Origin: an uncultured Candidatus Saccharibacteria bacterium
GTDB taxonomy: Bacteria; Patescibacteriota; Minisyncoccia; Phycocordibacterales; UBA918
Reading direction: 5' to 3'
DNA: 57,148 bases
NCBI GenBank assembly: GCA_964618165.1
Contig: CAZTWW010000002.1
Coordinates: forward strand, 1-57,148
Positions 28,722 to 31,550 of this stretch are shown here, one piece after another. Under the pieces are notes generated by a model. It had not been told where the DNA came from, did no database searches, and saw only the letters and a list, made by a program, of their open reading frames with translations. A program made the position numbers and the translations under genes. How positions within the stretch are numbered: position 1 is the stretch's first letter; each line of letters begins with the position of its first letter.

Positions 28722-31550
28722 ATGCATAAAAAATTCGACTCAGGACTGATTGAACAAAAGTGGCAACAAACATGGGACGAAGCCAAGCTCTATGAAGTTG
28801 GCGATCGTGACCCGAGTAAAGATAAAGCCTACCTCCTCGTCGAATGGCCCTACCCATCGGGCAACCTCCATATCGGTCACTGGTACGCCTTTGCAGTACC
28901 AGACATCTATGCCCGCTACAAGCGCATGCAAGGTACCCAGGTTCTTTTTCCAATGGGCTTTGACGCCTTTGGTCTCCCGGCAGAAAACGCCGCCATCAAG
29001 CGGAAGCTCGACCCAAAAGTCTGGACCTACGACAACATGGCGTACATGCGTCACCAGCTCAAGAGCATGGGCAACATGTTTGCTTGGGACAAGACCACCT
29101 CAAGTACCGATCCCGAGTACTACGCGTGGACGCAACAGATGTTCACTGAGTTCTTTAAGCATGGTATCGCATACCGTGGGAAGGGTGTGGTCAATTGGTG
29201 TCCGGGGTGTAACACCGTGATAGCAAACGAGCAAGTCTTACCAGACGGCACCTGCGAGCGCTCAGGAGACATGATTGAAAAGCGGGAGATGCCACAGTGG
29301 ATGCTCAAGATTACCAAGTATGCCGATAAACTCATCGACGACCTCGAGACCGTCAACTGGCCAGAGCATATTAAAGAGGCGCAGCGTCAGTGGATTGGTC
29401 GTAGTCGTGGTGCTGAGATAGACTTCACGCTCACGACTGGCGAGACCGTTACTGTCTTTACGACACGGCCAGACACCCTCTATGGGGTGACGTACCTCGT
29501 TCTCGCACCAGAGCACGCACTCCTGCAGTCCGCAACAGTGCGAAGCAACACCTCGAACTTGAGTGACGTTGACGCCTATATTGCGAAAGCGAAGCAAAAA
29601 GACGAACAAGACCGTCTCGATGCCACCAAAGAAAAGACTGGGGTGAAGCTTGATGGTATTACCGCGACCAATCCGGTTAATGGCGAGACCATTCCAGTCT
29701 TTGTCGCTGACTATGTGCTCGGTGGCTACGGTACCGGCGCCATTATGGCAGTACCAGCGCATGATGAGCGCGATGGTGAGTTTGCTCGGAAGTTTAATCT
29801 ACCAATCAAACCTGTTGTAGCTACCCACTTCATAAAAAGTGAACAGATAGACAGAGTTAGAAATGGAGTTTACGGACTAATAAAAATTGATAATAAGTAT
29901 CTTATCCAACACTTCACAAAAGATGACTTCTACTGGCTACCAGGTGGAGGACTTGACCAAGACGAGACACACGAAAATGGGTTACTTCGTGAGCTAAATG
30001 AAGAGACACACTACGCAGACTTTTTAATCAAAGAAAAGGTATCTGTCGGTGTTATTGATACAAAATCAAAAGAAGGAAAATCACTTCGCAACATTAGTCA
30101 GGTCTATAAAGTAGAGATTGCATCAAATAACACGTCACCAAGCGCAATGACTGCAGACGAACTAGAAGACGGTATCGAACTATTATTACTCTCAAGAGAA
30201 GAAATTGAGAAACTCACCTCTTCATTTGAACCTGAACGAATTGAATTTATAAAAGAGGCAATCCGCATTGCAGAAGGTGAACCCAAAACATCAACCGGTG
30301 TACTTGTGGCCTCCGGTGAATTCGATGGACTTGATAGTGAGACCGCTAAAGAACAAATTGTCGCCAAAGTTGGTGGTCGCATGACCTCGACCTATCGCCT
30401 CCGCGACTGGTCAATCGGGCGCCAGCGGTACTGGGGCGTCCCGATTCCAATTGTCTATAGCCCAGAAGGTGAAGCCCACCCGGTGCCAAAGGAGCATCTT
30501 CCGTGGCTCTTGCCAGAAGACGTCGACCCAACCCCAACCGGTGTCGCTCCACTTGCGAAGAGTGAAGAGCTCAAGCGTCGGACCGAGGCTATCTTTGGTC
30601 CCGGCTGGACACCAGAGGTCGAAACGATGGACACTTTCGTCGACTCATCCTGGTATTTCCTCCGTTATCTCGACAACCATAATGAGAATGCACTCGCAAG
30701 CCTCGAACGACAAAAGGAATGGATGCCAATTGATGTGTATTTCGGTGGAGCCGAGCACACTACCATGCACCTCCTTTACTCACGCTTCTGGCAGAAGGCA
30801 CTCTACGACCTTGGTCTCGTGACCGAAAGTGAACCATATCATCGACGCGTCAACCGTGGCCTTATCCTCGGCCCAGACGGCAACAAGATGAGTAAGAGTA
30901 AAGGCAATGTCGTTGACCCTGACGAGCAAGTGAAGTTCGTCGGCGCCGATACAGTAAAGATGTACCTCGCCTTTATGGGCCCCTATGAGGGGAACAACTA
31001 CCCCTGGGATATGGGTGGGATTGCTGGTGTACGCCGCTTCCTCGAGCGTGTCTACGGTCTTATCGACCATATCAGTGACACAGAAGGGGAGGAAGTAACC
31101 CGCCAGCTCCACAAGACCATCATCAAAGTAAGTGGAGACATTGCTGAGTTTAAGTTCAACACCGCCATCAGTGCGATGATGATATTCGTGAACCTCTCCG
31201 AGAAGTCGACCCTCACCAGAGCATCATACGAGACCTTCCTCCGTCTCCTCGCTCCATTTGCCCCTCACCTCACCGAGGAGATTTGGCATGAGCTCGGACA
31301 CACCACGAGCATCCACCTTGAGGCCTATCCAGTGGCAGACGAAGCCCTCGCCCGTGACACAAGTGTCGAGATCGGGGTCCAGGTCAACGGCAAGATGCGA
31401 GGCAGTATTACGGTGAGCCAGGAGGCAGGGGAGAGTGAGGCGCTAGACGCCGCACGAGCAGTCCCAACTATCGCCGGGAAGCTCGCGGAAGGGGAGATAA
31501 AAAAGGTGATTTATATCCCTGGTAAAATCCTTAATGTTATTGTCGGATAA
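28722..31550 (+). CDS. leuS: Leucyl-tRNA synthetase with an inserted Nudix-like module
   Basis: 'HIGH' variant 'NLHIGHWY', editing-domain 'TTRPDTLYG', 'AVPAHDERD', 'KMSKSKGN'. 942 aa against about 800-860 typical. Confidence 0.95.
   Translation: [942 protein letters not shown]
29820..30296 (+). other. In-frame insertion (residues about 367-525) containing a Nudix box
   Basis: '[23 protein letters not shown]' (29946-30014) fits GX5EX7REUXEEXGU except that the final G is H. The DNA here is AT-rich: 22 of 60 GC at 29821-29880. Confidence 0.7.

What the first reader, a model, noticed from the sequence alone, without database searches (positions are those of the whole stretch)
29820..30296. Nudix-box module inserted in-frame in leucyl-tRNA synthetase, with a sharp AT shift
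- **Position of the insert.** The leuS ORF is uninterrupted (942 aa). CP1 editing-domain sequence ends at '[24 protein letters not shown]' and the conserved '[16 protein letters not shown]' segment follows later. E. coli-type LeuRS has only about 20 residues between these two points. Here there are about 158 aa.
- **Nudix box.** The insert contains '[23 protein letters not shown]'. This matches GX5EX7REUXEEXGU with all catalytic Glu/Arg positions present; only the last G is H.
- **Composition.** The insert DNA differs clearly from its flanks. I hand-counted 22/60 GC at 29821-29880 against 37/60 at 30361-30420.
- **What it is not.** There is no intein signature and no frame break.
- **Interpretation.** This looks like a foreign hydrolase domain captured into an essential synthetase. 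Possible substrates, by inference only, are Ap4A or other adenylate side products. I do not know of a described LeuRS-Nudix fusion.
Basis: partly seen in the sequence, partly recalled or inferred. Interest (0 to 1): 0.8.

Follow-up and report, generated by a model that had tools for sequence, protein, structure and literature searches.

The report
Swappable Nudix module inside LeuRS editing domain
An essential translation enzyme (leucyl-tRNA synthetase) of an uncultured Kaiserbacteria-like bacterium carries a complete Nudix pyrophosphatase domain nested in its proofreading domain, and related bacteria gain, lose, swap and double such modules at this one loop; no paper found in the library searched describes this.

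Summary
ORF 28722-31550 is a complete bacterial LeuRS, and residues 367-525 (29820-30296) form a 159-aa in-frame Nudix domain. It passes the Pfam cut-off, has an intact Nudix box, gives a confident model (pLDDT 90) and has 468 Nudix fold matches in the PDB. Its GC3 is 0.30 against 0.60 in the flanks, the lowest value in the window.

Two corrections apply. The module lies inside the CP1 editing domain, not after it. It is also not a one-off capture: 103 of 116 close LeuRS relatives (Kaiserbacteria/Paceibacteria MAGs) carry Nudix modules at the same loop. These fall into at least seven sequence types, including nine ordered tandem pairs, and 13 relatives have only a short linker.

Cores that are 90-97% identical carry different modules. 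Against the closest relative, nucleotide identity falls from about 0.90 to about 0.5 exactly at the insert edges, with synonymous sites near saturation. That pattern indicates cassette replacement by recombination.

The catalytic residues are invariant within the window's type, and dN is far below dS. Some relatives also carry a Ham1/ITPase domain at a second CP1 site.

Best reading: an active nucleotide pyrophosphohydrolase riding on LeuRS, with its substrate unassigned. I found no published description.

The parts
28722..31550 (+). leuS: complete bacterial-type leucyl-tRNA synthetase, 942 aa, hosting the module
   Evidence: ORF. TIGR00396 leuS_bact scores 892 bits against a cut-off of 548. 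The AF2 model matches T. thermophilus, E. coli and N. gonorrhoeae LeuRS with TM 0.70-0.78.
28869..28880 (+). HIGH signature (H50-I51-G52-H53) of the class I catalytic core
   Evidence: H50, G52 and H53 are invariant and I51 nearly invariant in alignments A1 and A2.
29385..29819 (+). CP1 editing domain, first part (Pfam PF13603 positions 1-144). It includes the T-rich motif TTRPDT (29460-29477) and the AHDERD motif (29757-29774).
   Evidence: PF13603 covers residues 222-370. T247, T248, R249, D251, T252, H347, D348, R350 and D351 are invariant.
29820..30296 (+). Nudix module ('type A' cassette), residues 367-525, nested in a CP1 surface loop
   Evidence: PF00293 scores 31 bits against a gathering cut-off of 21.1. 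AF2 model: pLDDT 90.0, pTM 0.85. 468 PDB Nudix matches at E<=1e-3. GC3 is 0.30 against 0.60. Identity to the closest relative collapses only here.
29946..30014 (+). Nudix box [23 protein letters not shown] (G409...Y431), the metal-binding and catalytic motif
   Evidence: Regex hit. G408, G409, E415, R423, E424, E427 and E428 are invariant in 31 type-A proteins.
30297..30356 (+). CP1 editing domain, second part (PF13603 positions about 145-179), resuming at '[11 protein letters not shown]'
   Evidence: In-silico excision of 367-525 gives one contiguous PF13603 match to positions 1-179 of 185. Aligns with T. thermophilus residues 379 onward.
30885..30899 (+). KMSKS signature (K722-S726) of the class I catalytic core
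   Evidence: Invariant in alignments A1 and A2.

Best explanation
The gene encodes a working bacterial LeuRS. Its CP1 editing domain hosts an independently folded Nudix pyrophosphohydrolase domain of 159 aa in a surface loop about 16 residues after the AHDxRD editing motif.

Shown:
- The domain has the Nudix fold and a complete catalytic box.
- The catalytic residues are invariant in its sequence type.
- It evolves under purifying selection.
- The loop is a lineage-wide cassette site in Kaiserbacteria/Paceibacteria. Nudix modules of at least seven sequence types are gained, lost, replaced and doubled there.
- The window's module has a much deeper divergence from the closest relative's module than the surrounding gene does.

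Inferred:
- Cassettes are exchanged by homologous recombination, with the almost invariant LeuRS flanks acting as arms.
- The low GC3 reflects that separate history, or weaker constraint on the module.
- The module is a Mg2+/Mn2+-dependent hydrolase of a nucleoside-diphosphate-X compound, most likely a (d)NTP-type or dinucleotide 'house-cleaning' substrate.
- It uses LeuRS as a constitutively expressed carrier. It does not replace or disable aminoacylation or editing.

A second, unrelated nucleotide pyrophosphatase (Ham1/ITPase) is inserted in the same editing domain in some relatives. That supports a shared 'nucleotide sanitation on LeuRS' theme.
For: Host is intact:
- TIGR00396 scores 892 bits.
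- The HIGH, KMSKS, T-rich and AHDERD motifs are conserved.
- The model matches solved LeuRS structures.

The module is a Nudix domain:
- PF00293 is above its cut-off for the window module and for every other type, at 30-60 bits, often over the full length.
- AF2 model: pLDDT 90.
- Foldseek top hits are CTP pyrophosphohydrolase, NudI, MutT, BdRppH and Ap4A hydrolase at probability 1.00.
- An exhaustive search finds 209 relatives at E<=1e-3. The listed best hits are mostly 140-200-aa proteins, and the one scanned (P0121) is NUDIX-only; identity is at most 38% for the top hits.

The module is likely active:
- G408, G409, E415, R423, E424, E427 and E428, plus R380, Y384, Q396, W405, D446, E480 and R506, are invariant in 31 type-A proteins.
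- dN/dS is about 0.08-0.27 with dS saturated.
- Vertically inherited pairs keep the module at about core-level identity (92% against 94.6%; 89.5% against 91.8%).

Cassette behaviour:
- Of 116 relatives, 94 have a single module, 9 a tandem pair and 13 a short linker.
- Types: C 32, A 31, B 11, D 11, F 4, E 2, G 2, plus one singleton, P0095.
- Cores 90-97% identical carry different types, tandems or no module.
- Window against L080: nt identity is about 0.90 in the core and 0.45-0.6 between about 29790 and 30310, with third-position identity 0.2-0.5.
- The presence/absence pair L012/L022 breaks at the same edges.
- Both alleles occur in one metagenome.
- All 9 tandems are ordered C/D/E first and A/B second.

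Theme:
- A Ham1p_like domain sits at a second CP1 site in L028 and L041, and together with Nudix in P0232.

Not an artefact:
- Three assemblies are identical.
Against: - No biochemical or expression data exist; everything comes from metagenome assemblies.
- The substrate is unassigned. No NCBIfam equivalog cut-off is met, and the structural neighbours span several substrate classes.
- For the window's own module the Pfam match covers only the box region (18-59 of 134, 31 bits).
- The penultimate Gly of the box is His in the window.
- Type D modules have invariant Gln and Ala in place of the first Glu and the Arg. At least one type may therefore be non-catalytic or chemically different.
- I could not obtain model coordinates. 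The position of the Nudix active site relative to the editing pocket and the tRNA path is unknown, so a direct role in LeuRS chemistry is not excluded.
- Recombination is inferred from identity profiles, not from a formal test.
- The low GC3 could also come from relaxed codon selection.
Confidence: 0.75

Rival explanations
1. The Nudix module works on LeuRS chemistry itself. It might hydrolyse Ap4A or ApnA made by the synthetase, non-cognate or toxic aminoacyl-adenylate analogues, or a nucleotide group on tRNA(Leu) (RppH/NudC-like). Its placement in the mobile CP1 domain would then be functional coupling.
For: - At least seven different Nudix sequence types were recruited to the same loop of the same enzyme, and almost no other domain type appears there.
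- BdRppH and Ap4A hydrolases are among the top structural matches.
- The insertion lies about 16 residues from the editing-site Asp.
- Rapid cassette turnover in an otherwise near-invariant protein resembles diversifying selection.
Against: - Aminoacyl-adenylates are acyl-phosphates, not the diphosphate substrates typical of Nudix enzymes (established Nudix chemistry).
- 13 of 116 close relatives do without any module, so LeuRS does not need one.
- The Ham1/ITPase and alpha/beta-hydrolase insertions fit a general 'passenger enzyme' picture better.
- No geometry could be measured.
Confidence: 0.2
2. The module is a non-catalytic structural, regulatory or RNA-binding appendage that merely retains a Nudix fold.
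For: - Type D modules have invariant substitutions of the box Glu and Arg.
- The window's box has His at the conserved Gly position.
- The Pfam score is modest.
Against: - In type A, the window's type, every catalytic position plus seven further residues are invariant across 31 proteins whose modules share only 32-60% identity with the window's.
- Types B, C, E and F also keep RE..EE.
- Conservation concentrated on the metal-binding residues is what an active site predicts.
Confidence: 0.1
3. One reading: a single, recent capture of a foreign hydrolase gene fragment into this genome's leuS.
For: - The composition break is sharp and GC3 is 0.30.
- Divergence from the closest relative is confined to the insert.
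Against: - The architecture is shared by more than 100 protein clusters from independent MAGs, and by a 42%-identical Vogelbacteria LeuRS.
- The GC3 dip occurs in the Nudix-bearing Kaiserbacteria-type relatives.
- The window's module belongs to a 31-member type found in LeuRS cores as divergent as 65%.
Confidence: 0.04
4. A selfish in-frame element (intein-like or transposon-derived) or an assembly chimera.
For: It is an in-frame insertion in an essential gene with horizontal mobility.
Against: - There are no intein or Hint domains.
- The insert starts 'ATHF' and ends 'KTST|GV', with no His-Asn followed by a nucleophile.
- There are no terminal or target-site repeats.
- The catalytic Nudix residues are under selection.
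- The gene is identical in three assemblies.
Confidence: 0.03

Closest known systems
Small standalone Nudix (d)NTP pyrophosphohydrolases (NudG/CTP pyrophosphohydrolase 3GWY and 2RRK, NudI 6DT3 and 3OGA, MutT), plus BdRppH 3EES and Aquifex Ap4A hydrolase 3I7U
   Same: Same fold, same size (about 130-160 aa) and same catalytic box. These are the best structural and profile matches.
   Different: Those are free-standing proteins. Identity is only 13-22%. No subfamily model reaches its cut-off. Here the domain is nested inside another enzyme's domain.
Bifunctional NadM-Nudix (NMN adenylyltransferase/ADP-ribose pyrophosphatase, 2QJT and 2R5W) and other end-to-end Nudix fusions
   Same: A Nudix hydrolase covalently joined to a nucleotide-handling enzyme. 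There are weak HMM and fold hits.
   Different: Those are terminal fusions with a metabolic logic in NAD turnover. This is an internal, nested insertion in a tRNA synthetase and is exchangeable between strains.
Isoleucyl-tRNA synthetase with an N-acetyltransferase domain (NCBIfam NF040702 'ileS_w_GNAT')
   Same: A class Ia synthetase carrying an extra, unrelated enzyme domain (model listed).
   Different: A different synthetase and a different passenger (GNAT). I did not examine its insertion site. No cassette polymorphism is known to me.
CP1 editing domain as an 'insertion-exclusive' module (domain-insertion survey, PMC13114784)
   Same: The same PF13603 domain, itself inserted into the Rossmann fold of LeuRS.
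   Different: The survey reports 213 events with 100% insertion behaviour for this domain. Here the editing domain is itself the host of one or two further domains, a third level of nesting.
Inteins in essential genes
   Same: In-frame, horizontally mobile insertions at conserved sites of essential proteins, with presence/absence polymorphism between close strains.
   Different: There are no splicing motifs and no Hint or homing-endonuclease domain. The module stays in the mature protein and keeps an enzyme active site.

Membership tests
Nudix hydrolase superfamily (PF00293) | Nudix box GX5EX7REUXEEXGU | tested here: met
   [23 protein letters not shown] at 29946-30014. All Glu and Arg positions are present; only the penultimate G is H. 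The box residues are invariant in 31 type-A proteins.
Nudix hydrolase superfamily (PF00293) | Profile score above the curated gathering threshold | tested here: met
   31.0 bits for the insert alone and 27.9 in the full protein, against a cut-off of 21.1. The match covers only profile positions 18-59. Other module types match nearly the full length.
Nudix hydrolase superfamily (PF00293) | alpha/beta/alpha sandwich fold with the loop-helix-loop catalytic motif | tested here: met
   AF2 model with pLDDT 90.0 and pTM 0.85; the helix at 51-62 carries the box. 468 PDB matches at E<=1e-3, all of the listed ones Nudix enzymes, with TM 0.49-0.67.
Nudix hydrolase superfamily (PF00293) | Divalent-cation-dependent hydrolysis of a nucleoside diphosphate linked to X | not testable with these tools
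   Needs an enzyme assay.
Specific Nudix subfamilies (MutT, NudI, NudG, RppH, Ap4A hydrolase, ADP-ribose pyrophosphatase, NudC) | Score above the equivalog cut-off of the subfamily model | tested here: not met
   The best hit is TIGR00586 MutT at 22.7 bits against 97.9. All others are far below their cut-offs, for the window module and for five other types.
Bacterial leucyl-tRNA synthetase (TIGR00396) | Equivalog score above cut-off, with HIGH and KMSKS signatures | tested here: met
   892.4 bits against 548.4. HIGH at residues 50-53 and KMSKS at 722-726, conserved in A1 and A2.
Bacterial leucyl-tRNA synthetase (TIGR00396) | CP1 editing domain with the T-rich motif and the conserved Asp of AHDxRD | tested here: met
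   PF13603 scores 198 bits. TTRPDT at 247-252 and AHDERD at 346-351 are present. The domain is contiguous after in-silico excision.
Bacterial leucyl-tRNA synthetase (TIGR00396) | Leucylation of tRNA(Leu) and hydrolytic editing | not testable with these tools
   Needs biochemistry.
Intein | N-terminal Cys/Ser/Thr (or class 2/3 motifs), C-terminal His-Asn followed by Cys/Ser/Thr, and a Hint fold | tested here: not met
   The insert begins ATHF and ends KTST followed by GVLV. There is no Hint or intein Pfam hit, and the fold is Nudix.
Transposon or insertion-sequence derived insert | Terminal inverted repeats and/or target-site duplication at the boundaries | tested here: not met
   Only short chance repeats occur inside the region, and none flanks 29820 and 30296.
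Known anti-phage defence proteins (PADLOC-DB) | Significant match to a defence-system model | tested here: inconclusive
   There are only weak matches to one candidate model, PDC-S07: 22 bits for the window module and 35 bits for type F. This is no evidence for a defence role.

The most novel reading that the evidence does not exclude
The CP1 loop is a recombination-fed cassette site under diversifying selection. The interchangeable hydrolase modules (Nudix types A-G, Ham1, alpha/beta-hydrolase) would then act as immunity or detoxification devices built into the very enzyme they protect. For example, they could destroy nucleotide-like LeuRS poisons (adenylate mimics of the agrocin/TM84 kind), alarmones or host- or phage-derived nucleotide signals. 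In that case module turnover would track an arms race in these episymbiotic bacteria.
Probability: 0.1. Interest if true: 0.9.

Novelty: new variant of a known kind. Interest (0 to 1): 0.65.

Why it matters
Aminoacyl-tRNA synthetases are among the most conserved proteins known. The LeuRS editing domain in particular has been catalogued as a module that is only ever inserted and never acts as a host.

Here that domain is a host, and a hypervariable one. An almost invariant essential enzyme contains a single loop where whole enzyme domains are swapped, stacked or dropped between strains whose cores are 90-97% identical.

- For synthetase biology, this offers natural with/without variants for testing whether a hydrolase tethered next to the editing site changes fidelity, adenylate handling or tRNA processing.
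- For Patescibacteria biology, it points to nucleotide sanitation enzymes being carried on translation proteins in very small genomes.
- For protein engineering, it marks a naturally validated permissive site in LeuRS.
- For genome evolution, it is a clean example of domain-level cassette exchange driven by conserved flanks.

Tried and rejected
- A word-indexed homologue search with the insert alone found nothing. The modules are too divergent; the full-length search and the exhaustive search were needed.
- Intein: rejected (no motifs or Hint domain).
- Transposon-type insertion: rejected (no boundary repeats).
- Assembly chimera: rejected (three identical independent assemblies).
- Amino-acid composition as the only cause of the AT shift: rejected (GC3 halves).
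- The AT shift as proof of a recent, genome-specific transfer: rejected (the dip is general in relatives).
- Subfamily or substrate assignment with NCBIfam: no cut-off met.
- Defence-system link through PADLOC: only weak box-level hits.
- dN/dS: synonymous sites are saturated between species representatives, so only rough upper-bound ratios could be obtained.
- Geometry of the Nudix site relative to the editing pocket: not possible, because model coordinates are not exposed.
- tRNA scan of the window: none found.
- I did not use the third large homologue search or the metagenome scan, because the distribution was already clear.
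Full report
1. What is in the sequence.

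The ORF 28722..31550 (+) is uninterrupted and encodes 942 aa. It is a bacterial leucyl-tRNA synthetase:
- TIGR00396 scores 892 bits against a cut-off of 548.
- Pfam finds the class I catalytic core, the LeuRS editing domain PF13603 and the anticodon-binding domain.
- The HIGH (residues 50-53), KMSKS (722-726), T-rich (TTRPDT, 247-252) and AHDERD (346-351) motifs are conserved among relatives.

Between 'LPIKPVV' (ending at residue 366) and '[11 protein letters not shown]' (starting at 526) lie 159 extra residues, nt 29820-30296. T. thermophilus LeuRS has about 15 residues at this point, residues 364-378.

The extra segment contains [23 protein letters not shown] at nt 29946. This is a Nudix box in which only the penultimate Gly is replaced by His.

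GC is 0.379 in the insert against 0.523 and 0.544 in the flanks. GC3 falls from about 0.60 to 0.30. None of 906 equal-sized coding windows elsewhere in the 57 kb reaches so low a GC3 (minimum 0.308).

2. Where exactly the insert sits.

In fact it is nested inside the editing domain:
- PF13603 is interrupted at profile position about 144 of 185.
- Removing residues 367-525 in silico restores one contiguous match to positions 1-179 of 185.
- The site corresponds to a loop about 16 residues after the editing-site Asp motif.

3. It is a real Nudix domain.

- PF00293 scores 31 bits on the insert against a gathering score of 21.1, although only over the box region.
- An AlphaFold2 model of the insert, made with 20 related modules, has mean pLDDT 90.0 and pTM 0.85. 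It shows the expected strand-helix-strand layout, with the box on helix 51-62.
- Foldseek against the PDB gives 468 matches at E<=1e-3. The listed top 50 are all Nudix enzymes. The best are a CTP pyrophosphohydrolase (3GWY), MutT/Nudix proteins, UDP-X diphosphatase, NudG, NudI, BdRppH and an Ap4A hydrolase (TM 0.57-0.67).
- A profile search of PDB sequences agrees.
- An exhaustive HMMER search of 1.84 billion representatives finds 209 relatives at E<=1e-3. The listed best hits are mostly 140-200-aa proteins, and identity is at most 38% for the top hits.
- In the full-length model (pLDDT 81.9) the insert folds with pLDDT 83-92, and the remainder superposes on solved LeuRS structures.

No NCBIfam subfamily model comes near its cut-off, so the substrate class cannot be assigned.

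4. It is not peculiar to this genome.

The full-length search returned 120 best clusters (63-87% identity), almost all Patescibacteria, Paceibacteria or Kaiserbacteria MAG proteins with PF00293 precomputed. The species-representative genomes give the same picture, with records titled Candidatus Kaiserbacteria, Paceibacteria and Parcubacteria.

Of 116 proteins I could parse:
- 94 have one module of 140-169 aa at this loop;
- 9 have two modules in tandem (310-326 aa);
- 13 have only a 10-52-aa linker.

The modules fall into distinct sequence types: C 32, A 31 (the window's type), B 11, D 11, F 4, E 2 and G 2, plus one singleton, P0095. Every type is PF00293-positive, and several match over nearly the full profile.

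All nine tandems have the same order, with a C, D or E module first and an A or B module second. The same type never occurs twice. A Vogelbacteria LeuRS only 42% identical to the window's also has a Nudix module at the same loop.

5. The modules are exchanged between lineages.

Module type does not follow the LeuRS core. Pairs with 90-97% identical cores carry different types, a tandem against a single module, or a module against none. Examples are P0046/P0073 at 97.3%, P0010/P0021 at 97.1% and P0051/P0054 at 96.6%.

The window's closest relative, P0002, has a core 96.4% identical but a module only 44.6% identical. At the DNA level the contrast is sharp:
- Identity to that relative (L080) is about 0.90 across the gene, with third-position identity about 0.75.
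- Between about 29790 and about 30310 it drops abruptly to 0.45-0.6, with third-position identity 0.2-0.5, close to saturation.

Saturated synonymous sites mean the two modules are much older alleles than the genes around them. That is replacement, not fast evolution in place.

A presence/absence pair (L012 with a type D module, L022 with a 38-aa linker) breaks at the same two edges. No repeats flank the insert. Homologous recombination through the nearly invariant flanks is therefore the likely route; this step is inferred. Both the window allele and the P0002 allele were assembled from the same metagenome.

6. The AT shift.

In the Nudix-bearing loci L001-L016, L043 and L047 the module's GC3 is 0.04-0.36 lower than the core's. 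The shift is therefore a property of the cassette in this lineage. It does not mark one recent event in this genome. It fits a separate evolutionary history, possibly combined with weaker codon constraint. I could not separate these two causes.

7. Is the module functional?

Within type A, seven box residues are invariant across 31 proteins: G408, G409, E415, R423, E424, E427 and E428. So are R380, Y384, Q396, W405, D446, E480 and R506. The modules of those proteins share only 32-60% identity with the window's.

Types B, C, E and F also keep the RE..EE residues. Type D has invariant Gln, Ala and Ala at three box positions and may differ in chemistry or be inactive.

Where modules are inherited vertically they are about as conserved as the core (92.0% against 94.6%; 89.5% against 91.8%). 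dN is far below dS, with ratios of about 0.08-0.27 against 0.03-0.06 for the core, although dS is saturated. Together these results point to a selected, probably catalytic, domain.

8. A wider theme.

Some relatives carry other enzyme domains at a second CP1 site, between 'GAEIDF.L' and '[11 protein letters not shown]':
- A Ham1/ITPase-like domain, another nucleotide pyrophosphatase family, sits there in L028 and L041 (PF01725, 49.6 bits).
- P0232 has Ham1 at that site together with Nudix at the window's site.
- P0103 has an alpha/beta-hydrolase there.

The recurrent recruitment of nucleotide 'house-cleaning' enzymes suggests that LeuRS serves as a carrier for such activities in these small genomes. 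This is an inference.

9. Rivals.

- Direct role in LeuRS chemistry (ApnA, adenylate analogues, tRNA ends). This is not excluded, because I could not inspect coordinates. It is weakened by the 13 module-less relatives and by the non-Nudix passengers.
- Non-catalytic role. This is unlikely for type A, given the invariant active-site residues.
- One-off capture, intein, transposon and mis-assembly. Each is contradicted by the tests above.

10. Novelty.

Six literature searches combined Nudix with LeuRS, aminoacyl-tRNA synthetase, Patescibacteria, CPR or Kaiserbacteria. None found a description.

A 2026 survey of domain insertions reports the LeuRS editing domain as insertion-only, with 213 events and 100% insertion behaviour. 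Here that domain is a host.

The proteins are in public databases, mostly unnamed or called 'class I tRNA ligase family protein' or 'leucyl-tRNA synthetase'. The parts are known; the architecture and its cassette dynamics appear undescribed. I rate it a new variant of a known kind, with interest 0.65.

Noticed in passing
L028, L041 (locus ORFs) and P0232: LeuRS relatives carry a Ham1/ITPase-like domain of about 200 aa (PF01725) at a second CP1 site, between 'GAEIDF.L' and '[11 protein letters not shown]'. P0232 has both Ham1 and Nudix.
   Followed up: partly
P0103 (1124 aa): An alpha/beta-hydrolase domain (PF12697, PF00561) is inserted at that same second CP1 site, in addition to a type D Nudix module at the first site.
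   Followed up: no
L036 and L078 (Chloroflexales LeuRS): A 130-aa insert with no Pfam match occupies the same CP1 loop as the Nudix modules. It shows no GC3 shift. Its nature is unknown.
   Followed up: partly
window 79-6793: Three consecutive large + strand ORFs (728, 868 and 665 aa) have GC3 0.37-0.39, against about 0.55 for most genes of the window. This is a second low-GC block.
   Followed up: no
window 23972-24550 and 36411-37268: An HD-domain YfbR-like 5'-deoxynucleotidase ORF and an ATP-cone ORF lie within 8 kb of leuS. These are further nucleotide-handling genes in the neighbourhood.
   Followed up: no
L080 and L083 (both from GCA_013558355.1): One metagenome assembly holds two leuS alleles with 96% identical cores and different Nudix cassettes. 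This suggests cassette polymorphism within one community.
   Followed up: partly
window 29500-29560 (LeuRS residues about 261-281): A second, small variable patch in CP1 ('[16 protein letters not shown]') shows locally lower identity to close relatives. The same patch is variable in the L012/L022 pair.
   Followed up: no
window 31648-32673: The gene just downstream of leuS combines a sigma-70 region 4 domain with a HARE-HTH domain. The same neighbour is present in the independent contig L081.
   Followed up: no
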